From positions 540,001 to 572,000 of the forward strand of contig JALHOH010000001.1 in NCBI GenBank assembly GCA_022843095.1: a stretch of DNA of 32,000 nt, read 5' to 3'. Of this stretch, positions 18,973 through 31,318 are shown in pieces; position 1 is the first letter of the stretch; every line of letters starts with the position of its first letter. The position numbers were made by a program, and so were the translations under genes. This DNA is from Candidatus Saccharimonadota bacterium (GTDB taxonomy: Bacteria > Patescibacteriota > Patescibacteriia > 2-12-FULL-60-25). The notes under the pieces are model-generated. The model had not been told where the DNA came from, searched no databases, and was given only the letters and a program-made list of their open reading frames with translations.

Positions 18973-19728
18973 TCAGCGCCGAGCGCCGAGCCAGGCCATG
19001 CGATGCATGACGTCTGGGATGGCGCCAGGGCTCATCGGGTCCGTTCCTACGGAGTAGTTCCGGATCGTCACGGCATAGCCGGTTGCATCCACCTCCCACA
19101 CGGAGGTCCTGAGCATGTTTCCCATCTGTTGGGAAAGTCCGACATTGCAGTAGACCTTGCGACCCACGCAGGCGCAACCGTTTTCTCCGCCCGGCACTGT
19201 CCAGCCGAATTGGAGTACGCCACTGAGTGTACCGACACTGAGCGCAACAGTTTCTCGCCCCATGTACGACCATCGTCCGCCGATCAACGTCTCTTCGACG
19301 TCGCAGGGCGCGGCCATGATGCCACGAGGAAGGTGTGGCGAGCAACGAGTGCCCGCGACCGGATCGCAGCTCATCGCAGCGCGGCAGCTGGCCTCCAGAT
19401 CTGCCATCTCGCAAAGTCGAGGAAGTTCGCTGACCGGCATCACCGGGCAGCTGCAGGTTGCGGCGCCGCGGCAGAGCGGATTATCGGGGTTCTGGTAGGC
19501 CACACAGGTGCCGCCCATCATCCCGCTGTCCATTCGGGCGTCAGGCCCGGGCTGAACCACGTCGGGTCCAGGGGTCGTCATGCCGTCGGGCTCGCCACCG
19601 GCGTCCGCCATCATCATGGCGTCCGGTCCGGGGGTCGTGCCTTCGTCAGGCATGTTCATGGGCTGGCCACAAGCTCCGGAGAGGAGGGCCAGCCCAAGAA
19701 GCGCGAAAAACACAAACCATCGCTTCAT
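18973..19728 (-). CDS. Secreted, probably lipidated, Cys-rich hypothetical protein
   Basis: Signal peptide ending in a lipobox-like LLSGAC (MKRWFVFFALLGLALLSGACGQP). A low-complexity PD/AG/MM linker is followed by a Cys-rich domain. A canonical SD, AAGGAGAG, lies 5 nt upstream of the ATG. GC3 is high. Confidence 0.7.
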   Translation of the reverse strand: MKRWFVFFALLGLALLSGACGQPMNMPDEGTTPGPDAMMMADAGGEPDGMTTPGPDVVQPGPDARMDSGMMGGTCVAYQNPDNPLCRGAATCSCPVMPVSELPRLCEMADLEASCRAAMSCDPVAGTRCSPHLPRGIMAAPCDVEETLIGGRWSYMGRETVALSVGTLSGVLQFGWTVPGGENGCACVGRKVYCNVGLSQQMGNMLRTSVWEVDATGYAVTIRNYSVGTDPMSPGAIPDVMHRMAWLGARR

Positions 19729-19850
19729 TGGGTCTCTCCTTGTTCAGTTGTGAGGTGCTCCTCAACAACCACGTTTCTAGTGTATCGAACGGCTAAAACC
19801 TAAGCAAAGGGATGTGGATAAGTCAAGGGAGGGGGGAGGTTCACATGTAT

Positions 19851-19880
19851 AAAAAAATCCCCTCGGAAGATTCCGAGGGG
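19851..19880 (-). terminator. Rho-independent terminator of the 19902..20789 gene
   Basis: cccctcgg (19859-19866) pairs with ccgagggg (19873-19880) around loop aagatt. The hairpin is followed on the - strand by a T run (aaaaaaa at 19851-19857 on the + strand). Confidence 0.75.
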
Positions 19881-19901
19881 GTGCGCGAGGACCGCGCGAC
19901 T

Positions 19902-20789
19902 TCAGCTCTGCTGCTTCGCGTCCGTCCCTGCGCTCCGAATCTGGAGCTTCTTCTGGGCGAGCGGGAAGATCTCGCTGTAGGGCGTCATCATGACACCCAT
20001 AACGTCGCTCGCGTCCAGCTTCCGCTCCACGCCGTGCTCGAGCGGCTTGGCGATGGCGCGGCAGAAGGCGCGCTTCCCGAGGTCGACGATCGTGTCGGCC
20101 TGGTCCTTCTTGAACTTGCAGCTGTCCACGAACTCGTGGGCCGTCGGCAGGACGGGGATCGGCTCGATGCCGAGGTCGCGCGCCGCCGCCTCGACCCCGA
20201 CGATGAAGTGCTTGCGCACCTCCGAGTTGGCCAGCCGACCGCGCGACGTCGTCGGCGCTTCCTTGGTCGTGACCGGCCACTGCATGGTCCGGACGCGGTC
20301 GCGAAACGACTTCTTCCACACCTTGTCCTTGAGCAGATCGCCGGGATCCTGGTGCACGAGGAGGAGGACGAGAAGAGCCTCGCCCCTCATCACCTGGGTC
20401 AGCTCCGTCTGGTGCGCCGAGGAGAGCTTTTCGGCGTCCAGAACCACGACGATGGGGCGCGGATCCGCAGTCTCCAAGCGGTTGAGGGTGCCCGCGTCCT
20501 TCGCGTAGATCGTCTCGACCGATCGCTGCAGGAACTGTCCCAGCAGCACGAGCCCGTTCTTCACGTTCACGAGCTCCTCCGGCGTGCAGTGGAGCGCCGT
20601 CATCTCGTGGCGGAACTCGGGGCGATTGAGCCTGTCCGCGAGACCCTTGCAGGTCATCACCTGCGGCAGGGTCAGGCAGTACTTCTCCGCCTCGCGACGT
20701 CGCTCCTCGTTCCCGGACTTGGGCTTCGACGCCACATCCGCCAGAACATCCGTCGCCATCGTTCCCATCGTCGTTGCCTGGATCGTCAT
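19902..20789 (-). CDS. Hypothetical protein, high-GC island gene (about 295 aa, family not recognised)
   Basis: This is the only frame in the region with balanced amino-acid composition and near-saturated G/C at third codon positions. I prefer the ATG at 20789 (MTIQATTMGT...) over the TTG at 20840. It contains a Walker-B-like PIVVVLDAEKL segment but no Walker A motif. Confidence 0.55.
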   Translation of the reverse strand: MTIQATTMGTMATDVLADVASKPKSGNEERRREAEKYCLTLPQVMTCKGLADRLNRPEFRHEMTALHCTPEELVNVKNGLVLLGQFLQRSVETIYAKDAGTLNRLETADPRPIVVVLDAEKLSSAHQTELTQVMRGEALLVLLLVHQDPGDLLKDKVWKKSFRDRVRTMQWPVTTKEAPTTSRGRLANSEVRKHFIVGVEAAARDLGIEPIPVLPTAHEFVDSCKFKKDQADTIVDLGKRAFCRAIAKPLEHGVERKLDASDVMGVMMTPYSEIFPLAQKKLQIRSAGTDAKQQS

Positions 20790-20953
20790 TTCCTTGTTCA
20801 CCTGTCTTGAAAGAACCACCACGTTGGAGCCCGTCTCCAACCACCGGCTTTTTGGGAAAAGCGTTGGTTACCATACGGATTTTACGCAGAATTGTCAAGT
20901 ATCTGTGTGCACGGCTTGACCCCCCGGTGCTTCGCGCGTATCCTTGCACTATT

Positions 20954-20998
20954 GACCTGTTCTGGATGGACAGGTCTTTCTTTTTCCTCATTTTTTCT
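20954..20998 (+). promoter_or_regulatory. Terminator-like hairpin plus T tract abutting the nusA start codon (candidate attenuator)
   Basis: gacctgt (20954-20960) pairs with acaggtc (20970-20976) around a 9-nt loop. It is followed by tttctttttcctcattttttct, which runs straight into the ATG at 20999. Confidence 0.35.
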
Positions 20999-22315
20999 AT
21001 GGCATCACCCATCTCGCTTGCGATGAAGCAGATCGCGGAAGAAAAGAACATTCCGTATCCGTCCGTTTTGGAGACCGTTGAATCCGCGCTTGCGGCGGCA
21101 TACCGCAAAGATTTCGGGAACAAGAACCAAAATATCAAGGTGGAGTTTGATCCGGAAAAATACGATGGCATGACCGGCGGCATTCGTGTATTTGATGTCA
21201 AAACCGTGGTGGAAGACATGGAATTGCCGGAGGATTATGCGGAACAGTTGGAAGCGGCGGCAGCTGCAGAAGCGGCAAAGCGTCGAGAGGATCGCAAAAA
21301 GGGGATTGTGACTCCGCGCCCGGCGGACACGGACTTGCCAACCGAAGGGGAATTCAAGTTCAACCCAAAAACGATGGTGATGATTTCTGACGCCCGCGAC
21401 TTAAAACCGGACGCGGCGATCGGGGAGGAGATTCGTGTGGAATTGTCCGTCCCGGCAGCATTTGGACGCATGGCGGCACAAACGGCAAAACAGGTGATTC
21501 TGCAAAAACTCCGCGAAGCAGAACGTGGCGTGATTTTTAGTGATTTCAAGGGTCGTGAAGGGGAGCTTATGAACGTCACGGTGCAGCGCCGTGAAGGACG
21601 TTTGGTGTTGATTGACCTGGGTCGTGCAACGGGAATCATGATCCCGGAAGACCAGATCGAAACCGAGCGCTATTTTCCAGGGACGCGGATCAAGGCGTTG
21701 CTGCGTGAAGTTGCGATGACGACCAAGGGGCCGGAAATCCGGTTGTCTCGCACGGCGCCGGCATTGGTTGGCGCATTGTTTGCACAGGAAATTCCGGAAA
21801 TCGCAAACGGTGTCGTCGAGATCCGGGAAATTGCGCGTGAAGCGGGGAGTCGTACCAAGGTTGCGGTGTCCTCCACGGACGAGCAGATCGACCCGATTGG
21901 GAGCTGTATCGGACAGCGTGGGACGCGTATTCAGTCGGTCATCCGTGAATTGGGCGGCGAAAAAGTGGATGTGATCGAGTTCTCGGAAGACGCTTCGACG
22001 TTTATCGCCGCGTCGCTTGCGCCAGCAAAAGTTTTGCGCGTGGAATTGGACGAGGATGAACACTTGGCGCGCGTATCGGTCGCGTCAGATCAGCTGTCGC
22101 TCGCGATCGGTAAAGGCGGGCAAAACGTCCGTTTGGCGGCAAAATTGACCGGGTGGAAAATCACGATTTTGGAGGAAGGTGGGAAGGCGGTTTCCGTGGA
22201 CGAAGTGGGTGTTCCGGCGGCGGACGCGACGTCCGATGTTCCGGAGACGGCGGCAGAAGCGGATGCGAAGGATGAAGACGTCTCACATCCGGTAGAGGCG
22301 ACGCCCGCATCCTAA
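20999..22315 (+). CDS. nusA: Transcription termination/antitermination factor NusA
   Basis: N-terminal domain (KQIAEEKNIPYPSVLETVESALAAAYRK), an S1 region, and two KH domains (IGSCIGQRGTRIQSVIRELGGEKVDVI and LSLAIGKGGQNVRLAAKLTGWKITI), followed by an acidic tail. I chose the ATG at 20999 because the upstream extension to 20774 crosses the island boundary and looks non-coding. Confidence 0.92.
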   Translation: MASPISLAMKQIAEEKNIPYPSVLETVESALAAAYRKDFGNKNQNIKVEFDPEKYDGMTGGIRVFDVKTVVEDMELPEDYAEQLEAAAAAEAAKRREDRKKGIVTPRPADTDLPTEGEFKFNPKTMVMISDARDLKPDAAIGEEIRVELSVPAAFGRMAAQTAKQVILQKLREAERGVIFSDFKGREGELMNVTVQRREGRLVLIDLGRATGIMIPEDQIETERYFPGTRIKALLREVAMTTKGPEIRLSRTAPALVGALFAQEIPEIANGVVEIREIAREAGSRTKVAVSSTDEQIDPIGSCIGQRGTRIQSVIRELGGEKVDVIEFSEDASTFIAASLAPAKVLRVELDEDEHLARVSVASDQLSLAIGKGGQNVRLAAKLTGWKITILEEGGKAVSVDEVGVPAADATSDVPETAAEADAKDEDVSHPVEATPAS

Positions 22316-22336: not shown

Positions 22337-23116
22337 ATGGGATCCATTTTTCAAACGGTGTTGTTTCAGCCCATCTTGAACCTGTTGGTTGGGCTTTACG
22401 ACGTCGTGCCGGGGAAAGATATCGGGATTGCGATCATCCTGCTCACCATTTTTGTCAAAGTGGTGATGTACCCGCTGACCAAAAAGCAGATCGAGCAGCA
22501 ACGTGCGTTGCAGGCGATTCAGCCAAAGATCGAGGAGATTCGATCGCGCTTGAAAGATAATAAAGAGCAGCAGGCGCAGGAACTCATGGAGCTCTACAAG
22601 CGCGAGAAGGTGAATCCGGCAGCCGGATGTTGGCCACTCCTGATTCAGCTCCCGATCTTCATCGCGTTGTATCAGGCGCTTTCAAGCGGATTGAATTCGC
22701 AAGGGCTGAACCTTTTGTATCCGTTCGTCCCAAATCCGCAGCAGATTGATCCGATGTTTCTTGGTTTCTTGGATCTGACCAAGCCAAGTTACGTCCTCGC
22801 GATTGCGGCGGCACTGGTGCAGTTTTGGCAGACCAAGCAGATCCTGAAACCGCCGGGGGCCACGGTGGCAGAACCGCCGAAAGAGGCGGAAGGGACGCAG
22901 GGCGCAAAAGATGAATCCATGGCTGCCATGATGAACAAGCAGATGGCCTACACCATGCCCATCGTGACGGCGGTCATTGGGTTTAGTCTCCCGGGCGGTC
23001 TTACGCTGTATTGGTTGGTGATGAGTATTCTGACGGTCGTGCAGCAGGCGGTGGTTTTGAAGCGCATCCCCCCACGTCTTGACCCGCAACTGGCGGAGAA
23101 AGAGCCGACTCGGTAA
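22337..23116 (+). CDS. yidC: Membrane protein insertase YidC (short Oxa1-like form)
   Basis: 259 aa with the conserved core: ILLTIFVKVVMYPLTKKQ...LQAIQPKIEEIRSRLKDNKEQQAQELMELYKREKVNPAAGCWPLLIQLPIFIALY. Confidence 0.9.
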   Translation: MGSIFQTVLFQPILNLLVGLYDVVPGKDIGIAIILLTIFVKVVMYPLTKKQIEQQRALQAIQPKIEEIRSRLKDNKEQQAQELMELYKREKVNPAAGCWPLLIQLPIFIALYQALSSGLNSQGLNLLYPFVPNPQQIDPMFLGFLDLTKPSYVLAIAAALVQFWQTKQILKPPGATVAEPPKEAEGTQGAKDESMAAMMNKQMAYTMPIVTAVIGFSLPGGLTLYWLVMSILTVVQQAVVLKRIPPRLDPQLAEKEPTR

Positions 23117-23161
23117 GATCCGACCGTTTTTCTAAGAAATCCAGCATTCTGGTTCACTTGT

Positions 23162-25171
23162 ATGAAACAGTCCTCTCAGTCCATGTCTTCGATTCGTCGC
23201 CGCGCAGGGTGGTTGCTTGCCTTGCTTGTCGTGACGGGGGCGATGGCGTATCCGGAGCCGGCGAACTGGCTCATTTGGCAGGCTGAACGCGTGTCCGGTG
23301 TGACGTTGCCGCGTATTCAGCTTCCGTTCGTGTTGGGCCTTGATTTGCAGGGAGGAACGTCGCTTGAATATGAAGCAGACGTTTCCAAAATCCCGGAAGC
23401 CGAACGCCGTGAAGCGTTGAATGGTGTTCGTGATGTGATTGAACGTCGCGTGAACGCCATGGGTGTCGCAGAGCCGTTGATCCAGACGACTCAGGCGGGA
23501 GATGCCTGGCGTGTGAACGTGGAATTGGCGGGTGTTCGTGACATCACGCAGGCGATCAAGCGCATTGGAGAAACGCCGATCTTAGAATTCAAGACGGAAA
23601 ACACCTCCACACAGCCAGAACTGACGGAAGCGCAAAAGAAATTACTCGCCGATACCAATGCCGCACGCAAGAAGCAGGCGGACGCGTTTTTGGTCGAGGC
23701 GCAAAAACCGGGCGCAGATTTGCAGGCGCTGGCAAAGCAGGCAAATACATCAACCGTCACCACGACGAATCTTGGATTTGTCCAAGGGAATCCGGCGTAT
23801 TCCGCGATTGCGGCAGAGGCGCGAGGGAAGTCTGCTGGGACGATCCTTGGCAAAGTGTTTGATGAAGAGCCGGCCTATGTCGTCGCCAAGGTGGATGAGG
23901 TGCGCGACGATAAAGAGGTGCAGGCGAGTCACATCCTTATTTCTTGGCAGGGGATCGAAGGGATTGGTTCGACGCTGACCAAAGAAGATGCACGTAAAAA
24001 GATCGAGGAGTTGAAGAAGCAGGTGACGCCGGCGAATTTTGCCGACATCGCCGCGAAGGAATCGCAGGAACCAGGCGCATCCGCCTCCAAGGGGGATCTT
24101 GGATACTTCGGGAAAGGGCAAATGGTGGATGCGTTTGAAAACGCGGTGTTTCCGATGGCAAGCGGAACGATCTCGGACATTGTCGAAACGCAATTCGGCT
24201 ACCACCTGATCCACAAGACCGGAGAGCGCATGACGCCGAATCAAAAGGTCTCTGTGCTTGCAGTGCTGAAGCTCACGGCAAACGACATCGCGCCACCGCC
24301 AGAACCGTATGTTGCAACACGACTCACGGGGCAGCACCTCCAAAGTGCGCGGTTAGAGTTCAATCCGCAGACGGGATTCCCGTATGTGGCGCTTGAATTC
24401 AATGAAGAAGGGGCGAAGTTGTTTGAAGAGATTACGCGAGACAACATCAATCGCCAGATCGCCATTTTCTTGGATGGGAACGTGATCTCAAATCCGGTGG
24501 TGAACCAGGTGATCATGGGGGGTCGCGCCACGATCGAAGGGCGGTTTACGGTTGAGGAGGCGAAGTTGCTGGCACGCCGATTGCAGGCTGGCGCATTGCC
24601 GGTGCCGGTGAAGCTCATTGCGCAGCAAACCGTTGGACCGACGCTTGGGACGGATTCGGTGCAACAGTCGTTGATGGCGGGGTTGATCGGGTTTGCGCTT
24701 GTCGCCGTGTTCATGATCGTGGTCTACCGTCTTCCGGGGCTTGTGTCTGTCCTGGCACTCGCGCTGTACGCCGCGGTGTCCTCTGCTGTGTTTAAGACGG
24801 TGCCGGTTACGCTTTCGCTTGCCGGGATCGCTGGGTTCATCCTGTCGATTGGGATTGCGGTCGACGCAAACATTTTGACCTTTGAACGGTTGAAAGAAGA
24901 ATTGGAGGATCAAAAGAAGTCGCTTGCGAACGCGCTTGAGGAAGCCTTCCGGCGCTCTTGGCTTTCCATTCGCGACGGCCACATGACGGTGCTGATCTCC
25001 TGTGCGGTGTTGTACTGGTTTAGCTCGAGTATCATTCGTGGATTTGCCTTGACCCTTGCGATCGGGACGCTCTTGTCTCTGTTTACGGCAGTCGTGTCCA
25101 CGCGTACCATGTTGCGTTTCTTGGTGCGGACGTCGGTTGCAAATAAGGGATGGCTCTTCTTGAAGAAGTAA
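23162..25171 (+). CDS. secD: Protein translocase subunit SecD with an inserted PrsA/parvulin-like PPIase module
   Basis: SecD hallmarks are GLDLQGG, ILEFK, LTGQHLQSA, IAIFLDGNVISNPVV, GALPVPVKL and VGPTLG, plus the six-TM C-terminal region. Residues of about 150-375 (nt 23609-24286) contain a canonical parvulin domain (ASHILISW...GDLGYFGKGQMVDAFENAVF...GYHLIHK). Confidence 0.88.
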   Translation: MKQSSQSMSSIRRRAGWLLALLVVTGAMAYPEPANWLIWQAERVSGVTLPRIQLPFVLGLDLQGGTSLEYEADVSKIPEAERREALNGVRDVIERRVNAMGVAEPLIQTTQAGDAWRVNVELAGVRDITQAIKRIGETPILEFKTENTSTQPELTEAQKKLLADTNAARKKQADAFLVEAQKPGADLQALAKQANTSTVTTTNLGFVQGNPAYSAIAAEARGKSAGTILGKVFDEEPAYVVAKVDEVRDDKEVQASHILISWQGIEGIGSTLTKEDARKKIEELKKQVTPANFADIAAKESQEPGASASKGDLGYFGKGQMVDAFENAVFPMASGTISDIVETQFGYHLIHKTGERMTPNQKVSVLAVLKLTANDIAPPPEPYVATRLTGQHLQSARLEFNPQTGFPYVALEFNEEGAKLFEEITRDNINRQIAIFLDGNVISNPVVNQVIMGGRATIEGRFTVEEAKLLARRLQAGALPVPVKLIAQQTVGPTLGTDSVQQSLMAGLIGFALVAVFMIVVYRLPGLVSVLALALYAAVSSAVFKTVPVTLSLAGIAGFILSIGIAVDANILTFERLKEELEDQKKSLANALEEAFRRSWLSIRDGHMTVLISCAVLYWFSSSIIRGFALTLAIGTLLSLFTAVVSTRTMLRFLVRTSVANKGWLFLKK

Positions 25172-25190
25172 TGTTGCTGCATGACACGTT

Positions 25191-26090
25191 ATGAAACTTC
25201 CAATCATTAAATACCGTGCGATCTGGTACGTGATCTCTGCGGTGACGGTCGGGATCTCCATCGCGTTTTTCTCGATGTGGGGATTAAAGCAGGGGATCGA
25301 ATTCACCGGAGGATCCCTCATGGCTGTTCGTTTTGAAGGGACGCGTCCTTCTGCGGCAGATGTGCAATCCGCGATTGATAGCGCCGGGGTCGACGTCGGG
25401 ACGCTGGTGTTGCAGCCGGTGGGGGAGACGGATATGCAGGTGCGTTTGAAGGCGTTGGATGAAGAGCAGCACGGCAAGGTATTTGGCGCCATTCGCCAGA
25501 AGTTTTCTGGGGCAACCGAGCTGCGCTTTGATTCCATCGGACCGGTGATCGGCGAGGAACTGCGCGATAAATCGATTAAAGGGTTGGCGTTGTCGCTTGG
25601 GTTGATTCTGGTGTACGTCGCCTATGTGTTCCGCAAAGTCTCGGTGCCGGTGCAATCCTGGAAATATGGGATTGTGACGATCGTGACCGCCTTTCACGAC
25701 GTGATCGTGCCAATCGGGGTCTTTTCGTACCTCGGTCACTATCACAACGTCGAAATTGGCACGCCGTTCATCGCCGCGATTTTGACCATTCTCGGGTATT
25801 CCATCACGGATACCATCGTGGTCATGGATCGTATTCGTGAAAATCTTCAAAAAATGTCCGGGACGTTCGAGCAGATTGTTGAGGCATCCGTGCAGCAAAC
25901 GATGTTGCGCTCCCTCTTCACCTCGCTTACGACCCTCCTGACATTGGTCGCCATCTTCTTGTATGGTGGACGATCGTTGCATGATTTCACCCTTGCCTTG
26001 ATCATCGGGATTGCAACGGGGACGTATTCTTCCATCTTCGTAGCATCGCCGTTGCTCGTAACGTGGCAGAAGTTCGCCAAACAACGATAA
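25191..26090 (+). CDS. secF: Protein translocase subunit SecF
   Basis: Typical SecF N-terminus (IIKYRAIWYVISAVTV...GIEFTGGS) and six-TM region. It lies 19 nt after secD. Confidence 0.92.
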   Translation: MKLPIIKYRAIWYVISAVTVGISIAFFSMWGLKQGIEFTGGSLMAVRFEGTRPSAADVQSAIDSAGVDVGTLVLQPVGETDMQVRLKALDEEQHGKVFGAIRQKFSGATELRFDSIGPVIGEELRDKSIKGLALSLGLILVYVAYVFRKVSVPVQSWKYGIVTIVTAFHDVIVPIGVFSYLGHYHNVEIGTPFIAAILTILGYSITDTIVVMDRIRENLQKMSGTFEQIVEASVQQTMLRSLFTSLTTLLTLVAIFLYGGRSLHDFTLALIIGIATGTYSSIFVASPLLVTWQKFAKQR

Positions 26091-26103
26091 GCGTTCTACA
26101 AAA

Positions 26104-26134
26104 AACACGGGCACATCGCCCGTGTTTGCGTTTT
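26104..26134 (+). terminator. Rho-independent terminator after secF
   Basis: aacacgggc (26104-26112) pairs with gcccgtgtt (26118-26126) in a 9-bp stem with loop acatc, followed by tgcgtttt. Confidence 0.75.
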
Positions 26135-26162: not shown

Positions 26163-26180
26163 GAACGTGTGGTACACTGA
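26163..26180 (+). promoter_or_regulatory. Extended -10 promoter-like motif GAACGTGTGGTACACTGA upstream of the T4CP-like operon
   Basis: TGg-TACACT (26170-26178) ends 10 nt before the ATG at 26189. It shares 16 of 18 positions with the motif at 6642-6657. Confidence 0.35.
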
Positions 26181-26188
26181 TCCCATCC

Positions 26189-27535
26189 ATGGACGAACAA
26201 CTTCTCGGCTTTGACCAAGGAACGACCTGGCAAAGTCATATCGACACCCTTCTTGATCTCGCCGGAAGCAATCCGTTTGCGGCGATGTGGTATTTGTTTG
26301 CCAATGGAGGGTGGATTATTTTTCTGTGGGTGTTTTTGTGGGGGGCAAAATCCCTCTACATGGATTACATCCAAGGAAAGAACGGCGCCAAAAAAGAGTG
26401 GATCTTGCTTCGTGTGACCGTTCCGCGTGTCTCCGAACAGACGCCGAAAGCCGCGGAGAATATTTTTGCGACGTTTGCGGGCGCACACTCACCGTTTACG
26501 TGGACGGAAACGTATATCCAGGGGGCGTGGCAGAGTCCGATTGCTATCGAAATCGCCTCTATCGAGGGGCAAGTGGGGTATTACGTCCATGCAGAACGTC
26601 GCCTGCGTGATTTGGTAGAGGCGGCGATTTATGCACAGTATCCGGATGCTGACATCGATGAAGTGGAGGATTATACAAATCCCGTTCCAAAAGATTTTCC
26701 TGATCAAGAGTGGGATTTGTGGGGGTGTGAGATGACGCCGGTAAAATCGGATGCGTATTCGTTGAAAACCTATTTGGAATTTGAGGATAAGATCAGCGGG
26801 GAGTTTAAGGATCCCTTGGCGGCATTGTTGGAAAATTTTTCGCGGATTGGTTCGGGAGAGAATGTCTTTTATCAAATCGTGCTGCTACCGACAGACCAGA
26901 AAGATTTCCGTGGGCGTGCGGAAGAGCAAATGAATAAGATAAAGGGCATTAAAAAAGAGGCAAAAAGTACCTGGGTTGATGATGTGCTGTCCTTGCCCGG
27001 TTTTATTTTGAGCGGCGTAATTGAGGCGCTTGGGTTTGGGGGTGGCGGTGAAAAGAAGCCCGAGAAAAAAGATGGAACGCCAAGGATTTTGACGCTTTCT
27101 CCACGCGAAAAAGAGGTGCTTGAAGCCATGGAGCGGAAGGCTTCCAAGATTGGCTTTTTGTGCAAAATTCGTGTGATTTACGCGGGGAAGAAGGAAAAGA
27201 TGAAAAAGGCGCGTGTTGTGCAGCCGTTTATTGGGGCGATCAAGCAAACAAATACGTTTGACGCGCAGGCATTGAAGCCGGAATCGAAGCGAGTCGGGGT
27301 GAATAGCGCCTTCTGGTTTTTTAAAGACTGGCGGAATGACCGTCGAAAAGAGCGATTGATTCGTGCGTATCGTGATCGTTCGGCAGGGGTGGGGTTGTCT
27401 CCATTCATGCTTTCTGCGGAAGAACTTGCGACGCTTTGGCATTTCCCAATTTTGACGCAAGTAAAAGCCCCACAGCTGCGCCGGACAGAAGCCAAGAAAG
27501 TTGAACCTCCCGCAAACATTCCGTTTGGCGGATAA
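26189..27535 (+). CDS. Hypothetical membrane-anchored protein, partner of the downstream T4CP-like ATPase
   Basis: I chose the ATG at 26189 (MDEQLLGF...). One long hydrophobic segment (AAMWYLFANGGWIIFLWVFLWGA) precedes a soluble domain of about 380 aa with a Lys-rich linker. I recognise no family. It lies 21 nt upstream of the ATPase gene. Confidence 0.65.
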   Translation: MDEQLLGFDQGTTWQSHIDTLLDLAGSNPFAAMWYLFANGGWIIFLWVFLWGAKSLYMDYIQGKNGAKKEWILLRVTVPRVSEQTPKAAENIFATFAGAHSPFTWTETYIQGAWQSPIAIEIASIEGQVGYYVHAERRLRDLVEAAIYAQYPDADIDEVEDYTNPVPKDFPDQEWDLWGCEMTPVKSDAYSLKTYLEFEDKISGEFKDPLAALLENFSRIGSGENVFYQIVLLPTDQKDFRGRAEEQMNKIKGIKKEAKSTWVDDVLSLPGFILSGVIEALGFGGGGEKKPEKKDGTPRILTLSPREKEVLEAMERKASKIGFLCKIRVIYAGKKEKMKKARVVQPFIGAIKQTNTFDAQALKPESKRVGVNSAFWFFKDWRNDRRKERLIRAYRDRSAGVGLSPFMLSAEELATLWHFPILTQVKAPQLRRTEAKKVEPPANIPFGG

Positions 27536-27556
27536 TCCGATCGTTTTAGCGCCGGT

Positions 27557-29824
27557 ATGCCCATCGACTATTCTCATGACCACGACAACGAAATTACCCT
27601 CTTCGGCGAGGTGAACTTTCGTAATCAGCGCCGCCGATTTGGGATCAAAACGGACGATCGTCGCCGGCACATGTACGTGATCGGGAAAACGGGCATGGGA
27701 AAAACAACCCTGCTTGAAAACCTGATTGCGCAAGACATCAACGCAGGACATGGATGTTGCTATATCGATCCGCACGGGGATACGGCGGAAAAAATCATCG
27801 ACTACATTCCGGCGAATCGTATCAACGACGTCGTGTATTTTAATCCGGCGGACGCGGAATTCCCGATGGGATTCAACATTTTGGAATTGGATAACGAAGA
27901 GCAAAAGCCCCTGGTTGCAAGCGGACTCATGGGGGTTTTCAAAAAGATCTGGCCTGACGTGTGGAGTCCGCGCATGGAGTACATTCTCATGAACTGCGTG
28001 CTCGCGCTGTTGGATTATCCCGGCGCGACGCTCATGGGGATCAACCGATTGCTCGTGGATAAAGAATATCGCGCACGAGTCATCGCTAAGATTCGTGATC
28101 CGATCGTGAAGACATTTTGGGTCGCGGAGTTTGCCGCGTGGTCGGAAAAGTATGCAACCGAAGCCATTGCGCCGGTACAAAACAAGGTCGGGCAGTTTTT
28201 GTCGTCGTCTGTGATCCGTAACATTGTGGCGCAGGTGAAATCCACCATGAATTTGCGCCGCATCATGGACGATGGAAAGATTTTGATCGTCAATTTGTCC
28301 AAAGGGCGTATTGGGGAAGATAACATGCGGTTGCTTGGGGGGATGTTGATCACCAAGCTTCAGCTGGCGGCACAGGAACGTCAAAACATGAAAGAGCTGG
28401 ATCGACGTGATTTTTACATGTACGTCGATGAGTTTCAGAATTTCGCGAACGAATCATTTGCAAGTATTTTGTCGGAAGCGCGTAAATATCGGTTGAATTT
28501 GATCGTCGCGCACCAATACATCGAACAGCTGGATGAAAAAGTCGCGCCGGCCATTTTTGGAAACGTTGGGACGTTGATCGTCATGCGCGTCGGAGCCAAA
28601 GATGCGGAGTTTATGGAGACGGAGTTTGCGCCGTCACTGACCCCGGAAGATTTGGTGAGTCTTGCAAAGTTCCAGATGTACATGAAGCTCATGGTGGACG
28701 GGGTCGCGACTGCGCCGTTTTCGGCGAATTCCATGCCTCCGATTGCGCAAAAAACGCAGAGTACGGAGAAGGTGATTAAAGTGAGTCGCGAACGATACGC
28801 CGAACCGCGCCAAATTATTGAAGAGAAGGTCCTGAAGTGGGCGGGGATGGAGCTTCAATTACCGGGGGCTGCGATTCCGAATCCGCCTACGCCAAGTTCG
28901 ACCGTGGTTGCGGTTTCGGATGCGGAAACGCCGGTTGCGCATGAGTATCCCCTCATTCAAACGGAAGAAGAAAAAGAGCAGTTAGAGCAGGTGGCGGCTA
29001 AGAGTCCTGTCCAAAAAGTGGAGCCGGTTGGAACGGAGACGGAGCCGACAGAGTACTTGAAGATTCGTCCGGAACGGATGGCGGCGATTCAGGCAACCGT
29101 AGACAAGGCGCTTTCTTCTGCGGGTCAGAAAAAGCAAAAGCCGAAGTTTACCTATTCCTGTTCACGCTGCGGGAAGCAATTTGAATTGGCGGTGCAGCTG
29201 GATACTTCGCGGCCGATCTATTGCACCGAGTGCCGCCCGATTATATTAGAAGAACGAAAAAAATCGGGGACGTCGATGCAGGAGTTAAAGAAAGCGCCGA
29301 TTCCGCCCGAACGGGCAGCACGCATGGAGCCGCGTCCTCCTCAAAAACCAGCGCAGAAACCACCATCTTCCGGGGCGCATCCAGAACCGAATCGTCCGAG
29401 GATCGTGCGGGAGACGCCGCCGCAAGCTGCTATCAAAATCGTATCGGCTGCAAACGACCAAGAAAAGGAACGAGAAAGTCTATTGGCAGAGCTCACAAAA
29501 ACAAAGGGATCACCCATTGAAACGGATAAGCGCGTGCTGGAATCGAAAGCAGGTCAGCCACGTCGTGATGAGCGCGGAAGGCGTCGACCGGATCGTCCAC
29601 GAGAGTCGCGTGCACCGGAGTCCTCCAAGCCCGCGCCGACGGTCTCGGCCCAGCCCATTTCTCCCGCAGCGCCGCTTCCGCCTTCTCCAACCCCTCCACC
29701 GCCCCCACCTACACGGATGCCAGTGGATGCAGATATCGTGGTGATGCCATCAATGGAGGAAACGCCTGATACAACTTCGGGTTCTGGGCACACGCTTCGT
29801 CCTGGGCAAAAGATTTCCTTCTAG
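27557..29824 (+). CDS. VirD4/TraD/TrwB-like (type IV coupling protein-like) P-loop ATPase with a C-terminal zinc ribbon and disordered tail
   Basis: Walker A GKTGMGKT (27683-27706). Walker B-like YMYVDEFQ (28415-28438), followed by SEARKYRLNLIVAHQ. CSRC-x17-CTEC at 29159-29233. The roughly 190 aa after the ribbon are Pro/Arg/Lys-rich. There is no N-terminal TM segment. Confidence 0.75.
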   Translation: MPIDYSHDHDNEITLFGEVNFRNQRRRFGIKTDDRRRHMYVIGKTGMGKTTLLENLIAQDINAGHGCCYIDPHGDTAEKIIDYIPANRINDVVYFNPADAEFPMGFNILELDNEEQKPLVASGLMGVFKKIWPDVWSPRMEYILMNCVLALLDYPGATLMGINRLLVDKEYRARVIAKIRDPIVKTFWVAEFAAWSEKYATEAIAPVQNKVGQFLSSSVIRNIVAQVKSTMNLRRIMDDGKILIVNLSKGRIGEDNMRLLGGMLITKLQLAAQERQNMKELDRRDFYMYVDEFQNFANESFASILSEARKYRLNLIVAHQYIEQLDEKVAPAIFGNVGTLIVMRVGAKDAEFMETEFAPSLTPEDLVSLAKFQMYMKLMVDGVATAPFSANSMPPIAQKTQSTEKVIKVSRERYAEPRQIIEEKVLKWAGMELQLPGAAIPNPPTPSSTVVAVSDAETPVAHEYPLIQTEEEKEQLEQVAAKSPVQKVEPVGTETEPTEYLKIRPERMAAIQATVDKALSSAGQKKQKPKFTYSCSRCGKQFELAVQLDTSRPIYCTECRPIILEERKKSGTSMQELKKAPIPPERAARMEPRPPQKPAQKPPSSGAHPEPNRPRIVRETPPQAAIKIVSAANDQEKERESLLAELTKTKGSPIETDKRVLESKAGQPRRDERGRRRPDRPRESRAPESSKPAPTVSAQPISPAAPLPPSPTPPPPPPTRMPVDADIVVMPSMEETPDTTSGSGHTLRPGQKISF

Positions 29825-29837
29825 GTAGGCTATTGTC

Positions 29838-30509
29838 ATGGAACGCGTGTCGTTCGAAACGAAAGACGGCGTCACGATCGTTGGATCGTGGCAACCGACC
29901 GCCGACTCATCCTCGGCGGTTTTGCTGTTGCACATGATGCCGAGTGATCGAACGAGTTGGGTGCATCTACAGTCGCTGTTGTCCGAACGCGGAATGGCTT
30001 CACTTGCGATCGATCTTCGTGGGCATGGGGAGTCATTGCAGCAAAGGAACCAGGCATTGGATTATCGGATGTTTTCGGACGCAGAACATCAGGCCTCGGC
30101 TCAAGATATCCAGGCAGCGCTTGCTTGGATGCAGGAACGGAGTGGCGTATCGTCTGTTTTTGTCGTTGGCGCTTCGATTGGGGCGAGCCTTGCGTTGCAG
30201 AGCGCGATTGCGGATCCACGGATTCATGCGATTGCATTGCTTTCTCCCGGAGAGAGCTATCGTGGGATACAGGCGTTTCCGTTGGCGCGTCAGCTCTCGC
30301 CGACTCAAGGTCTTTTTGTTGCAGCCTCTTCTCCAGACGATCAGGCTTCGTTTGAGTCAGCAAAGGAGATATTGCGTTTGGCAGGGCGTTCGGTGGATGC
30401 TGGGCGCTGGTTCGAGAACGCCGGTCACGGAACACAGCTATTCACCTCCCATCCGGAGCTCGCGACAGCGCTTGTCGATTGGATCGCGAAGGAACGTACA
30501 CGTCTATGA
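29838..30509 (+). CDS. Alpha/beta-fold hydrolase (substrate unknown)
   Basis: Nucleophile elbow GASIG in VFVVGASIGASLAL, an HGES loop after strand 3, a C-terminal AGHG histidine and a length of about 220 aa. Confidence 0.7.
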   Translation: MERVSFETKDGVTIVGSWQPTADSSSAVLLLHMMPSDRTSWVHLQSLLSERGMASLAIDLRGHGESLQQRNQALDYRMFSDAEHQASAQDIQAALAWMQERSGVSSVFVVGASIGASLALQSAIADPRIHAIALLSPGESYRGIQAFPLARQLSPTQGLFVAASSPDDQASFESAKEILRLAGRSVDAGRWFENAGHGTQLFTSHPELATALVDWIAKERTRL

Positions 30510-31318
30510 TTTCATGGCTACAAGGGATCGTGCTAGGAGCGGTTCAAGGATTCACTGAATTCTTTCCCGTTTCTTCAAGCGGGCATCTTATTCTTGTCCC
30601 GGTGTTGTTTGGATGGACAGATCAGGGTCTTGCGTTTGATACGGTCCTGCATTTGGGGACGCTTGCCGCTTTGCTTTGGTATTTTCGTGCCGAATGGTCA
30701 GGAGCGCTTGTCTGCGCACCAAAGCGATCCGAAGAGGGGGCCGCGGCGCGCGCATTTTTAGGGAAGGTGTTGGTGGCGGCGTTGCCCGTCCTGGTAGTCG
30801 CGTTTTTCGTCAATGATTATGTGGAGGCGTTTGCGCGCCGAAGTGGTCTGGTGGCCTTTGATTTGGCGTTTTGGGGATTAATGTTACTCGGTGCAGATCG
30901 GTTTGCGGCGCGTCGGCCTGCGTCCACACTCTCGCCGACATTTGAGCATCTCACCTGGAAACAGGCGCTCATGGTCGGTATTGCACAGCCACTGTCATTG
31001 TTGCCGGGGACGTCGCGTTCCGGGATTACGATGACGGCGGGGTTGCTGTCCGGTCTCCCGCGCCCGCTCGCGGCAAAATTTTCGTTTTTTGTGAGTATTC
31101 CTGTGACGGCTGCGGCGGGTGCACATGGGGTGCTTGAGCTTCTGACCGCTGACGGGGTCGCGTTCCCGGTGGTCCCATTGATTCTTGGATTTTTTTCCGC
31201 AATGCTTGCAGGGTCGTTCGCTATTTCGTTCTTAATCTCGTATGTCTCAACGCAACGGTTCGATGTCTTCGTATGGTATCGGTTGGCGCTTGCCAGCGCT
31301 GTGTTTGTGCTTGTGTAG
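30506..31318 (+). CDS. uppP: Undecaprenyl-diphosphate phosphatase
   Basis: Shows the BacA/UppP signatures: GAVQGFTEFFPVSSSGHL and the PGTSRSG motif (LLPGTSRSGITMTAGL). The ATG at 30506 overlaps the upstream stop in an ATGA arrangement. Confidence 0.9.
   Translation: MISWLQGIVLGAVQGFTEFFPVSSSGHLILVPVLFGWTDQGLAFDTVLHLGTLAALLWYFRAEWSGALVCAPKRSEEGAAARAFLGKVLVAALPVLVVAFFVNDYVEAFARRSGLVAFDLAFWGLMLLGADRFAARRPASTLSPTFEHLTWKQALMVGIAQPLSLLPGTSRSGITMTAGLLSGLPRPLAAKFSFFVSIPVTAAAGAHGVLELLTADGVAFPVVPLILGFFSAMLAGSFAISFLISYVSTQRFDVFVWYRLALASAVFVLV

What the first reader, a model, noticed from the sequence alone, without database searches (positions are those of the whole stretch)
26163..29824. Split type-IV-coupling-protein-like module: single-pass membrane protein plus TM-less VirD4/TraD-like ATPase, without any other T4SS gene nearby
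Canonical T4CPs (VirD4, TraD, TrwB) carry their own N-terminal TM helices and sit within T4SS or relaxase clusters. Here the ATPase (Walker A GKTGMGKT, Walker B YMYVDEFQ, and a region resembling the all-alpha and TraM-recognition-like domains) starts directly with the soluble domain. The upstream, tightly linked gene encodes a protein with one long hydrophobic segment and a 380-aa domain of unknown family. The pair has its own promoter-like element and follows a strong terminator. I saw no VirB4, VirB6, relaxase or pilin gene within the window. This may be a self-contained two-component nucleic-acid or protein translocation device, such as DNA or RNA uptake in a nucleotide-auxotrophic reduced genome, rather than part of a conjugation system.
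Basis: partly seen in the sequence, partly recalled or inferred. Interest (0 to 1): 0.7.

Follow-up and report, generated by a model that had tools for sequence, protein, structure and literature searches.

The report
Split coupling-protein ATPase in a CPR bacterium
Two tightly linked genes in this ultra-small (CPR/Patescibacteria) bacterium encode the two halves of a membrane-anchored motor ATPase related to the "coupling proteins" of DNA-conjugation machines; it is real, widespread, unusually conserved and sits among housekeeping genes, but its cargo is unknown.

Summary
Gene A (26189..27535, 448 aa) has one N-terminal hydrophobic helix and a large cytoplasmic domain. Gene B (27557..29824, 755 aa) is a TM-less ATPase that matches TrwB/VirD4-type coupling proteins (T4CP) by Pfam, by PDB profile search and by predicted fold. 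No T4SS gene was detected in the window or within 10 kb of the pair in two close relatives.

- **A is not of unknown family.** It is Pfam DUF8128, and its model resembles the non-ATPase part of VirB4 (TrwK).
- **A and B are two halves of one protein.** Many other CPR lineages, Bacillus phage G gp156 and an actinobacterial plasmid T4CP carry DUF8128 and the ATPase in one chain. That plasmid gene sits between VirB4 and a relaxase-like gene. The window's break falls in the inter-domain linker.
- **The pair is widespread.** At least 561 species genomes have A. B lies directly downstream in about 58 of 80 loci, often after yidC-secD-secF.
- **B is strongly conserved.** It is 77-84% identical where SecD/SecF are 52-65%. 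All 118 close full-length homologues carry a C-terminal zinc ribbon.

A 2025 paper already reports T4CP homologues in 96% of Patescibacteria, rarely near virB4. Related Uhrbacteria usually encode VirB3-VirB4-TrsD elsewhere. Verdict: a domesticated, split T4CP, a new variant of a known kind. The "self-contained uptake device" idea is untested.

The parts
22337..26090 (+). Upstream context genes: yidC (22337..23116), secD with an inserted parvulin PPIase domain (23162..25171) and secF (25191..26090). This order is conserved in front of the pair in many relatives.
   Evidence: Pfam hits. SecD-SecF lie directly upstream of A in about 45 of 80 loci. The same order is seen in L087 and L088.
26103..26134 (+). 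Terminator-like hairpin after secF: a 10-bp stem at 26103-26112 / 26118-26127, followed by a U-rich tail.
   Evidence: strand folding gave dG -17.8 kcal/mol and z -3.88, with 0 of 200 shuffles folding as well. The consensus terminator scan did not list it.
26189..27535 (+). Gene A: a 448-aa DUF8128 (PF26449) protein, the membrane-anchored N-terminal half of the split coupling protein.
   Evidence: ORF. P0001 is 100% identical and carries PF26449. The family has 1,749 clusters at 50% identity. The AF2 model has pLDDT 80.8.
26258..26347 (+). Predicted single-pass TM helix of A (aa 24-53, LAGSNPFAAMWYLFANGGWIIFLWVFLWGA). The acidic N-terminus is inferred to face outside and the Lys-rich flank to face the cytoplasm.
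   Evidence: Sequence. Long helix H29-68 in the model. Fused CPR homologues have a strongly hydrophobic N-terminal helix at the same place. The topology is inferred from the positive-inside rule.
26396..27448 (+). Cytoplasmic alpha/beta domain of A (about aa 70-420), with a VirB4 (TrwK) N-terminal-domain-like predicted fold. It includes a conserved central hydrophobic helix (aa 266-284) and the C-terminal EELATLWHFP motif.
   Evidence: Foldseek against PDB: the top 11 hits are all R388 TrwK/VirB4 chains (E 1.6e-5 to 2e-3, probability 0.99-1.0), and no other P-loop ATPase appears in the list. Foldseek against viral structures: phage G gp156 8e-17 and gp155 8e-7. Invariant residues are listed.
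27536..27556 (+). 21-nt A-B spacer. A and B are in the same reading frame, separated by one TAA and seven sense codons.
   Evidence: Sequence. Across 60 loci the frames coincide in only 24, and gaps range from -4 to about +30 nt in most, so this is a real two-gene operon and not read-through.
27557..29824 (+). Gene B: a 755-aa TM-less T4CP-like ATPase with a C-terminal zinc ribbon and a disordered tail.
   Evidence: ORF. Pfam, NCBIfam and PHROG hits. P0121 is 100% identical.
27581..28846 (+). TrwB/VirD4-like nucleotide-binding domain (aa 9-430). Walker A is at 27683-27706 and Walker B at 28415-28438. An all-alpha insertion (aa 114-238, nt 27896-28270) occupies the position of the TrwB all-alpha domain.
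   Evidence: AF2 model pLDDT 89, pTM 0.87. Foldseek: TrwB E 8e-13, TM 0.60-0.62 over about 415 columns, then Cag-beta, HerA and DotL; no VirB4 in the top 50. Profile against PDB sequences: DotL 3.9e-10, TrwB 6e-9, VirB4 0.0035.
29159..29233 (+). Four-cysteine zinc ribbon (CSRCGKQFELAVQLDTSRPIYCTEC, aa 535-559).
   Evidence: Weak, sub-threshold Pfam/NCBIfam hits: Zn_ribbon_8, zf_Tbcl_2, CxxC-x17-CxxC. The motif is present in 118 of 118 close full-length B homologues but in only 1 of 92 fused-type proteins.
29252..29821 (+). Pro/Arg/Ser/Glu-rich low-complexity C-terminal tail (aa 566-755).
   Evidence: Composition P 19%, R 11%. The length varies among homologues, from 590 to 768 aa in total.
29838..31318 (+). 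Downstream context genes: alpha/beta hydrolase (29838..30509) and undecaprenyl-diphosphatase UppP/BacA (30479..31318).
   Evidence: Pfam. The same genes follow the pair in L087 and L088, and are themselves followed by YkuD and PBP5-like cell-wall enzymes.

Best explanation
The two genes encode one machine: a chromosomally domesticated type IV coupling protein (T4CP) that has been split in its inter-domain linker.

**Parts.**
- A supplies a single-pass membrane anchor and a cytoplasmic DUF8128 domain whose predicted fold resembles the N-terminal domain of VirB4.
- B supplies the TrwB/VirD4-type P-loop motor with an all-alpha insertion. A linker, a conserved zinc ribbon and a disordered Pro/Arg-rich tail follow.

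**Inferred mechanism.**
- A and B are made together from one operon. Their stop and start codons are nearly contiguous.
- A's cytoplasmic domain docks on B and holds an ATP-hydrolysing ring, presumably a hexamer as in TrwB, at the membrane.
- The tail and zinc ribbon recruit a cargo or an adaptor.
- ATP hydrolysis then hands over or pushes the cargo. DNA is the most likely cargo and protein is possible. The route would be the Patescibacteria T4SS core (VirB3-VirB4-TrsD-VirB6), which related genomes encode elsewhere.

**Shown here:** homology, fold, collinearity with fused forms, synteny, conservation and intact catalytic motifs.

**Inferred only:** hexamer formation, A-B docking, the identity of the cargo and dependence on the T4SS.
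For: **T4CP identity of B**
- Pfam TrwB_AAD_bind, TraG-D_C and T4SS-DNA_transf all score above their gathering cut-offs.
- A profile of B homologues finds the T4CPs DotL (3.9e-10) and TrwB (6e-9), far ahead of VirB4 (0.0035).
- The AF2 model (pLDDT 89) matches TrwB at TM 0.60-0.62 over about 415 columns.

**A and B are halves of one protein**
- PHROG 5156 covers A at profile positions 68-323 and B at 407-806.
- Phage G gp156 aligns to A through its N-terminus (3e-8) and to B through its C-terminus (31% identity, 2e-51).
- About 90 CPR proteins of 725-1,142 aa carry PF26449, mostly with PF10412 or PF12696, in one chain. They come from Berkelbacteria, Falkowbacteria, Saccharibacteria and Gottesmanbacteria.
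- In the joint alignment, A's C-terminal motif directly precedes B's N-terminal FG..FGIK.DDRRRH motif.
- B lies directly downstream of A in about 58 of 80 species loci, with gaps from -4 to a few tens of nt in most.

**Conjugative ancestry**
- On Embleya plasmid NZ_CP108778, an 812-aa protein has a DUF8128-like N-terminus (hhalign E 2.9e-5) and a T4CP ATPase 33.7% identical to B.
- It sits between a VirB4-like ATPase with PrgI/VirB3 on one side and a Replic_Relax protein with an SLT/NlpC hydrolase on the other.

**Domestication**
- The order nusA-yidC-secD-secF-A-B-uppP-cell-wall genes is conserved.
- In the eight nearest loci, B's ATPase is 77-84% identical, against 52-56% for SecD and 56-65% for SecF.
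- The Walker A glycines and lysine and Walker B E292 are invariant, and D291 is nearly so.

**T4SS elsewhere**
- Uhrbacteria and ABY1 genomes list VirB3-VirB4-TrsD plus two T4CP hits tens to hundreds of genes apart (PMC12102498 supplement).
- VirB4 is found in 2,417 of 3,035 Patescibacteria assemblies and T4CP homologues in 2,918.
Against: - No T4SS gene is linked to the pair anywhere I looked.
- T4CP homologues occur in about 500 more Patescibacteria assemblies than VirB4 does. One Uhrbacteria assembly lists a T4CP hit but no VirB4, TrsD or VirB3.
- The T4CP homologue of S. epibionticum is dispensable for epibiotic growth while the other T4SS genes are essential (PMC12102498).
- Conservation this strong is unusual for coupling proteins and fits a T4SS-independent housekeeping role at least as well.
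- A-B binding, oligomeric state and cargo are untested.
- About 16 loci with full flanks have A but no B within 8 kb.
- The Foldseek output does not report which part of TrwK aligns with A.
Confidence: 0.6

Rival explanations
1. Exapted, T4SS-independent motor. The split T4CP no longer works with any T4SS. It acts alone, or with the Sec/YidC or cell-envelope machinery, as a housekeeping translocase in CPR cells. Possible roles are DNA or RNA import, chromosome handling at division, or export of a specific substrate. This is essentially the first reader's idea.
For: - The pair sits in a housekeeping context next to yidC-secDF and cell-wall genes in ABY1, and next to gyrAB, dnaX or ribosomal genes for the fused forms.
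- Only 148 of 5,713 Patescibacteria T4CP homologues lie near virB4, and they occur in 96% of assemblies against 80% for VirB4.
- One Uhrbacteria assembly has a T4CP hit but no VirB4.
- B is far more conserved than SecD/SecF.
- The zinc ribbon is specific to this clade.
- There is a precedent in archaea: the VirB4-family ATPases CedB and CedD are domesticated for DNA import (PMC11868833).
- The 2025 authors themselves say that exaptation cannot be ruled out.
Against: - No channel partner is encoded with the pair. A contributes a single TM helix, which cannot form a pore on its own.
- All five ABY1 genomes I checked that carry the pair or gene A, or are Uhrbacteria with T4CP hits, except one, do have VirB4 elsewhere.
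- Missing VirB4 in MAGs can reflect incomplete assemblies.
- The sec synteny is restricted to one class, so it may be historical rather than functional.
- The S. epibionticum homologue is non-essential.
Confidence: 0.27
2. The pair is a divergent, split VirB4-type assembly ATPase rather than a coupling protein. A would be the VirB3+VirB4 N-terminal domain and B the VirB4 C-terminal domain. It would energise assembly of a T4SS or pilus.
For: - The only significant PDB fold matches for A are TrwK/VirB4 chains.
- A also matches the VirB4-like gp155 of phage G.
- VirB4 C-terminal domains are homologous to TrwB.
- NCBIfam VirB4_CagE gives a weak partial hit (1.2e-7).
Against: - B is much closer to T4CPs than to VirB4 in both sequence profile and fold, and no VirB4 appears in the top 50 fold hits.
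- B does not hit AAA_10 or P-loop_TraG, which VirB4-like proteins do.
- Related genomes have a separate bona fide VirB4 with its own TrsD.
- In the Embleya cluster and in phage G, a VirB4-like gene and the DUF8128+T4CP gene sit side by side as distinct components.
Confidence: 0.06
3. The pair is a remnant of an integrated conjugative element or prophage, or a component of an anti-phage defence system (for example MADS mad8-like or HerA-like), with no host housekeeping role.
For: - PADLOC mad8 hits at 5e-22, with weaker HerA and DndH hits.
- Homologues occur in Bacillus phages and on plasmids.
Against: - The chromosomal position is the same across many species and several CPR orders.
- Purifying selection is very strong, and the catalytic motifs are intact.
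- No integrase, relaxase, other defence gene or compositional break flanks the pair.
Confidence: 0.03

Closest known systems
VirD4/TrwB-type type IV coupling proteins (TrwB of R388, Cag-beta, DotL)
   Same: - The P-loop nucleotide-binding domain has an all-alpha insertion in the same position.
- TrwB is the best fold match (TM about 0.6) and T4CPs are the best PDB sequence-profile matches.
- The Pfam TrwB_AAD_bind, TraG-D_C and T4SS-DNA_transf signatures are present.
- There is a variable C-terminal extension, as in TraD and VirD4.
   Different: - The ATPase chain has no TM domain.
- The N-terminal part is a separate 448-aa protein with a large DUF8128 domain, not just two TM helices.
- The pair is chromosomal, sits in a housekeeping neighbourhood, and has no linked relaxase or T4SS.
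- B is far more conserved than conjugative T4CPs usually are.
- It has a zinc ribbon and a Pro/Arg-rich tail.
T4CPs lacking a TMD that pair with an adjacent membrane protein (TraJ/TraI of pIP501; TraG-TraJ pairs of R27), as reviewed in PMC7434980
   Same: The division of labour is the same: a soluble T4CP ATPase is encoded next to a membrane protein thought to anchor it.
   Different: - Those partners are small membrane proteins (the review gives about 200 residues and up to five TM helices for TraJ-like proteins) inside conjugation operons.
- Here the partner is single-pass with a roughly 380-aa cytoplasmic VirB4-NTD-like domain, and the operon is not in a conjugation cluster.
- I did not test homology between A and TraI.
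Single-chain DUF8128+T4CP proteins (other Patescibacteria such as P0422, P0428 and P0449; Bacillus phage G gp156; the Embleya plasmid NZ_CP108778 812-aa T4CP)
   Same: - Both domains are homologous and in the same order.
- The CPR forms have an N-terminal TM helix.
- The Embleya protein occupies the T4CP slot of a monoderm conjugation cluster.
   Different: - These proteins are fused, whereas the window's version is split.
- The zinc ribbon is almost absent from them (1 of 92).
- ATPase identity to B is only 38-53% for the CPR forms and 26-34% for the phage and plasmid forms.
VirB4 (TrwK of R388) and its split relatives TrsD+TrsE (pGO1/pSK41) and CedB+CedD (Sulfolobales)
   Same: - A's predicted fold resembles the non-ATPase N-terminal part of VirB4.
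- In TrsD/TrsE and in CedB/CedD the VirB4 N-terminal domain is likewise distributed over two polypeptides.
- Ced is a chromosomal, domesticated DNA-import system.
   Different: - B's ATPase is T4CP-like, not VirB4-like.
- A shows no sequence-profile similarity to TrsD or TrsE.
- Related genomes have a separate VirB4+TrsD.

Membership tests
T4CP (VirD4/TrwB family) | RecA-like P-loop NBD of the TrwB type with intact Walker A and B motifs | tested here: met
   Pfam PF10412, PF12696 and PF02534 score above their gathering cut-offs. Foldseek finds TrwB at E 8e-13 and TM 0.6. The Walker A glycines and lysine and Walker B E292 are invariant, and D291 is nearly so.
T4CP (VirD4/TrwB family) | All-alpha domain inserted in the NBD | tested here: met
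   Eight helices at aa 114-238 lie between the core strands. The roughly 415-column alignment covers nearly all of TrwB-deltaN70. Residue-level correspondence was not inspected.
T4CP (VirD4/TrwB family) | N-terminal transmembrane domain in the same polypeptide | tested here: not met
   B has no hydrophobic segment. The TM helix is in the separate gene A.
T4CP (VirD4/TrwB family) | Encoded with a relaxase and/or T4SS (MPF) genes | tested here: not met
   No such Pfam families occur in the window or within 10 kb in L084 and L086-L088. A less sensitive phmmer scan of 84 loci found no extra VirB4-like ORF.
T4CP (VirD4/TrwB family) | Couples a substrate (relaxosome or effector) to a T4SS channel | not testable with these tools
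   This needs genetics or biochemistry. Related genomes do encode VirB3-VirB4-TrsD elsewhere.
TMD-less T4CP plus membrane partner (TraJ/TraI pIP501 type) | A soluble T4CP ATPase encoded next to a membrane protein | tested here: met
   A (TM helix) and B (soluble ATPase) are 21 nt apart. The arrangement is conserved.
TMD-less T4CP plus membrane partner (TraJ/TraI pIP501 type) | The partner is homologous to TraI/TraJ-type small membrane proteins and lies in a conjugation operon | not tested
   TraI of pIP501 was not retrieved. A is much larger (448 aa) and is not in a conjugation operon.
DUF8128 (Pfam PF26449) | Match to the family model | tested here: met
   Precomputed PF26449 is assigned to P0001, which is 100% identical to A, and to nearly all homologues. 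It is named DUF8128. The local Pfam copy gave no such hit for A.
VirB4 | N-terminal domain with the VirB4 fold | tested here: inconclusive
   Foldseek probability is 0.99-1.0 but TM is only 0.32-0.36, and the aligned TrwK residues are not reported. That no other P-loop ATPase appears in the list argues that the match is to the non-ATPase part. There is no sequence-level signal.
VirB4 | C-terminal ATPase of the VirB4 type (AAA_10 / P-loop_TraG) | tested here: not met
   B has no AAA_10 or P-loop_TraG hit. VirB4 4ag5 scores only 0.0035 against 1e-9 to 1e-10 for T4CPs. No VirB4 is in the top 50 fold hits.
HerA / FtsK-SpoIIIE translocases | Family-specific ATPase signature and partner (NurA, or a multi-TM N-terminus with a gamma domain) | tested here: not met
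   FtsK_SpoIIIE scores E 0.042, below its cut-off. DUF87 hits only the P-loop region. HerA fold hits are weaker than TrwB. No NurA is present nearby.
MADS defence system (mad8) | Co-occurrence with the other MADS genes | tested here: not met
   The mad8 profile hits B at 5e-22, but the neighbours are Sec, YidC and cell-wall genes.

The most novel reading that the evidence does not exclude
The DUF8128+T4CP machine, here in split form, is a near-universal CPR membrane motor that has left the T4SS. It performs a core task of the reduced-genome lifestyle on its own or with the Sec/YidC or cell-envelope machinery. An example would be importing nucleic acid scavenged from the host.

A corollary follows if DUF8128 is truly homologous to the VirB4 N-terminal domain. 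The family would then preserve an intermediate architecture between VirB4 and VirD4, which is relevant to how coupling proteins arose.
Probability: 0.22. Interest if true: 0.8.

Novelty: new variant of a known kind. Interest (0 to 1): 0.45.

Why it matters
Patescibacteria make up a large share of bacterial diversity and depend on host cells, yet how they exchange material with hosts is poorly understood.

A 2025 survey found T4CP homologues in 96% of their genomes, almost never next to virB4, and could not say what they do. This locus adds four points:
- Many of those proteins carry, or in this clade are split from, a DUF8128 domain with a VirB4-like N-terminal fold.
- The split version is a stable two-gene operon in a housekeeping neighbourhood.
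- Its motor is conserved more strongly than SecD or SecF.
- It has acquired a clade-specific zinc ribbon.

Together these give concrete handles for testing whether this is the missing substrate receptor of the essential CPR T4SS or an exapted, independent translocase. The handles are the A-B interface, the zinc ribbon and the tail.

Tried and rejected
- **Flanks of the window's own contig.** The look-up of encoding contigs with the exact window proteins and with P0001 found nothing on record. I therefore could not read beyond the window and used close relatives instead.
- **Sequence search of A against PDB.** Neither the single sequence nor the profile gave a hit.
- **hhalign of the A profile** against pSK41 TrsD, pSK41 TrsE and phage G gp155 gave nothing. 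A is therefore not a sequence-detectable TrsD or VirB4-NTD homologue, and only the fold links them.
- **Programmed read-through.** A and B share a frame across a single TAA, which suggested read-through or a recent or erroneous split. I rejected this because frames coincide in only 24 of 60 loci and several pairs overlap by 4 nt.
- **tblastn of A against plasmids** found no match.
- **phmmer with pSK41 TrsE/TrsK/TrsD, phage G gp155, and Embleya VirB4 and PrgI** against all ORFs of 84 loci found only the B homologues themselves and one weak extra hit in L060. This is low-sensitivity negative evidence.
- **Literature searches** for 'DUF8128' and 'PF26449' found no papers. Wang et al. 2023 does not mention VirD4 or T4CP in its main text.
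- **FtsK-replacement idea.** I did not pursue it because TM7x is reported to have ftsK, and I could not check Uhrbacteria.
- **Defence-system and mobile-element readings** were rejected on genomic context.

Full report
**1. What is in the sequence**

The window comes from a Uhrbacteria-like member of the CPR/Patescibacteria. The exact proteins are in NCBI on a 683,555-bp contig, and the nearest homologues are labelled Candidatus Uhrbacteria or Patescibacteria.

- B carries Walker A GKTGMGKT (aa 43-50) and Walker B YMYVDEFQ (aa 287-294).
- B passes the Pfam gathering scores for TrwB_AAD_bind (9.2e-12), TraG-D_C (1.2e-6) and T4SS-DNA_transf (5.3e-5).
- B has no hydrophobic segment.
- A has an uncharged 30-residue stretch (aa 24-53). 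It is flanked by an acidic N-terminus and a Lys-rich C-side, and it is modelled as part of a long helix.
- A 10-bp hairpin with a U-rich tail follows secF (dG -17.8 kcal/mol, z -3.9).
- The consensus scan found no promoter between secF and gene A.

The rest of the window encodes the following genes:
- IF-2 (partial), a pyridine nucleotide-disulphide oxidoreductase, a Glu/Leu/Phe/Val-type dehydrogenase, a VanW-domain protein and Hsp20.
- A TSP3-repeat protein and a 3,818-aa ORF with no Pfam hit.
- NusA, YidC, SecD and SecF.
- Then A and B, an alpha/beta hydrolase and UppP.

No T4SS, relaxase or pilin family was detected.

**2. Gene A is DUF8128 with a VirB4-like N-terminal fold**

The precomputed Pfam assignment for A and its homologues is PF26449, named DUF8128. 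The family is large, with 1,749 clusters at 50% identity at E <= 1e-3.

An AlphaFold2 model built on 28 homologues reached pLDDT 80.8 and pTM 0.76.
- Its only significant PDB matches are chains of TrwK/VirB4 from the R388 T4SS (E 1.6e-5 to 2e-3, probability 0.99-1.0, TM 0.32-0.36).
- The next hits are unrelated FAD oxidases, and no other P-loop ATPase is listed. I therefore infer that the match is to VirB4's non-ATPase N-terminal domain. The tool does not report the aligned residues.
- Against viral models it matches Bacillus phage G gp156 (8e-17), phage JL (5e-16), phage Slash, and the VirB4-like gp155 (8e-7).
- Sequence methods do not connect A to PDB chains, TrsD, TrsE or gp155.

**3. Gene B is a TrwB/VirD4-type motor**

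The model of aa 1-440 reached pLDDT 89 and pTM 0.87.
- It superposes on TrwB over about 415 columns (E 8e-13, TM 0.60-0.62).
- Cag-beta follows, then HerA and DotL. No VirB4 is in the top 50.
- Eight helices (aa 114-238) occupy the position of the TrwB all-alpha domain.
- A profile of 26 homologues finds the T4CPs DotL (3.9e-10) and TrwB (6e-9) in the PDB, far ahead of VirB4 4ag5 (0.0035).

**4. A and B are two halves of one protein**

- PHROG 5156, an 824-position profile, matches A at positions 68-323 and B at 407-806.
- Phage G gp156 (825 aa) aligns with A through its N-terminus (E 3e-8) and with B through its C-terminus (31% identity, E 2e-51).
- Searching with gp156 returned about 90 CPR proteins of 725-1,142 aa. 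Nearly all carry PF26449, mostly together with PF10412 or PF12696, in one chain. They come from Berkelbacteria, Falkowbacteria, Saccharibacteria and Gottesmanbacteria. Most have one strongly hydrophobic N-terminal helix.
- In the joint alignment, A's conserved C-terminal motif (..EELATLWHFP..P.N.P) directly precedes B's N-terminal motif (FG..F....FGIK.DDRRRH.Y.IGKTG.GK). The break therefore lies in the inter-domain linker.

**5. Distribution, gene order and conservation**

At least 561 species-representative genomes encode an A relative, and the 80 best loci are Patescibacteria-type MAGs. Some are titled 'uncultured Gammaproteobacteria', which looks like a placeholder name.
- B lies directly downstream of A in about 58 of the 80 loci.
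- SecD-SecF lie directly upstream in about 45.
- Stop-to-start distances are mostly -4 to about +30 nt.
- A and B share a reading frame in 24 of 60 loci, close to the chance value of one third. This is a true two-gene operon and not a read-through artefact.

About 16 loci with full flanks have A but no B within 8 kb. Their neighbours are glycosyltransferases and envelope proteins, not T4SS genes.

In the eight nearest loci, identity to the window's proteins is:

| Protein | Identity |
|---|---|
| B ATPase domain | 77-84% |
| A | 47-54% |
| SecD | 52-56% |
| SecF | 56-65% |

More than 100 database homologues of B are 80-86% identical.

A CxxC-x17-CxxC zinc ribbon is present in all 118 close full-length homologues of B. 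It is present in only 1 of 92 fused-type proteins.

**6. Is a T4SS just outside the window?**

I could not read beyond the window. Two close relatives give the wider context: L087, and L088 from the complete 1.03-Mb genome CP060222.1.
- Their gene order is nusA-yidC-secD-secF-DUF8128-T4CP-(hydrolase)-uppP-YkuD-PBP5-like-radical SAM-mnmA.
- No T4SS family occurs within 10 kb on either side.
- The fused forms in a Saccharibacteria and a Falkowbacteria genome also sit among housekeeping genes.

**7. Links to real conjugation systems**

On plasmids, B-like ATPases reach 41% identity in a Sulfitobacter plasmid, where the gene is a lone 395-aa ORF.

On an Embleya (actinobacterial) plasmid the match is 33.7%. 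That protein is 812 aa, and its N-terminus matches the A profile (hhalign E 2.9e-5, probability 74%). It lies in the cluster PrgI/VirB3, VirB4-like ATPase, [DUF8128-like + T4CP], Replic_Relax, SLT/NlpC-P60.

Phage G shows the same adjacency: the VirB4-like gp155 next to gp156.

The architecture is therefore the coupling-protein component of some monoderm conjugation-type systems. The CPR version is a chromosomal descendant of it.

**8. What is already published**

Quinonero-Coronel et al. 2025 (PMC12102498) report the following:
- 5,713 VirD4-type T4CP homologues in 2,918 of 3,035 Patescibacteria assemblies, of which only 148 lie near virB4.
- VirB4 in 2,417 assemblies.
- The S. epibionticum homologue is not essential, unlike the other T4SS genes.
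- Exaptation 'cannot be ruled out'.

Their tables give further detail for the ABY1 class, which includes Uhrbacteria:
- The four ABY1 genomes I looked up that match my loci are all marked VirB4-positive. L041 and L039 carry the pair. L075 and L078 have A without an adjacent B.
- GCA_000995135.1, the genome of my locus L041, lists VirB4 as CDS 288, TrsD as CDS 289, and T4CP hits as CDS 338 and CDS 366.
- Two Uhrbacteria genomes have VirB3-VirB4-TrsD plus two T4CP hits hundreds of genes away.
- One Uhrbacteria assembly has a T4CP hit but no VirB4.

TM-less T4CPs that rely on a neighbouring membrane protein are a recognised subclass, for example TraJ/TraI of pIP501 (PMC7434980). Split or partial VirB4 N-terminal domains are also known in TrsD and in CedB/CedD, a domesticated archaeal DNA-import system (PMC11868833). 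I found no paper that mentions DUF8128 or PF26449.

**9. Interpretation**

The best-supported reading is a domesticated T4CP split at its linker.
- A anchors the complex in the membrane and contributes a VirB4-NTD-like platform.
- B is the ATP-driven ring.
- The zinc ribbon and disordered tail are candidate cargo or adaptor binders.

Whether it feeds the unlinked Patescibacteria T4SS or has become independent of it cannot be settled here. I favour T4SS coupling slightly. The observations that favour independence are the excess of T4CP over VirB4 genomes, the housekeeping synteny, the extreme conservation, and the non-essentiality of the S. epibionticum homologue while the T4SS itself is essential.

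The VirB4-type, mobile-relic and defence readings are unlikely.

**10. Verdict**

The 'self-contained nucleic-acid uptake device' idea remains speculation.

The family is already catalogued and partly discussed in the literature. The points that appear to be new are:
- the split,
- the VirB4-like fold of DUF8128,
- the conserved Sec-adjacent operon,
- the clade-specific zinc ribbon.

This is a new variant of a known kind, of moderate interest.

Noticed in passing
window 7406..18862 (+): A single 3,818-aa ORF with no Pfam hit at E <= 1e-3. It is preceded by a 246-aa TSP3-repeat protein (6660..7400). It may be a giant CPR surface protein.
   Followed up: partly
window 23162..25171 (+), SecD aa 247-353: SecD carries an inserted parvulin-type PPIase domain (Rotamase_3 1e-25) between its P1 subdomains. 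The same insertion is present in the relatives L087 and L088. This is in effect a SecD-PrsA-like fusion.
   Followed up: partly
window 27533..27559: A and B are in the same reading frame, separated only by TAA and seven sense codons. In L033 the homology even runs through a single in-frame TAG. Across loci the shared frame is no more frequent than chance.
   Followed up: yes
L023, L025, L029, L051, L072 (A at about 8000-9400): In a subset of genomes the DUF8128 gene has no T4CP gene within 8 kb. Instead it sits in a conserved block: GT2 glycosyltransferase, sigma-70-r4/HARE-HTH protein, A, GT4 glycosyltransferase, DUF4012 protein, DUF11 protein. I could not determine where B is in those genomes.
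   Followed up: partly
L001 (Bacillus phage G 89194..93336); L002 (phage CP-51 gp91): Jumbo phage G encodes a VirB4-like ATPase (gp155) next to a fused DUF8128+T4CP-like protein (gp156). In all, 33 phage records (31 from Bacillus phages, including SPO1-like Herelleviridae) carry related proteins of roughly 800-900 aa with no known function. The phage forms lack the N-terminal TM helix.
   Followed up: partly
window 26984..27040 (A aa 266-284) and equivalent positions in gp156, CP-51 gp91, P0418 and P0422: A second hydrophobic helix in the middle of DUF8128 is conserved and is followed by a low-confidence Gly/Lys/Glu-rich loop. In phage G gp156 it is the most hydrophobic segment (Kyte-Doolittle 2.28). 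It could be a membrane-inserting element.
   Followed up: no
window 19000..21200: This is the most GC-rich stretch of the window (0.61-0.62, with negative GC skew). It has long overlapping ORFs on both strands (19777..21219 on the minus strand, 19812..20810 on the plus strand), none with a Pfam hit, just upstream of nusA.
   Followed up: no
L089 (Sulfitobacter plasmid NZ_CP081110, 99994..101181): The closest non-CPR relative of B's ATPase (40.8% identity) is a lone 395-aa ORF. It has no N-terminal domain and no T4SS neighbours, and it lies among transposases on a non-mobilizable plasmid.
   Followed up: partly
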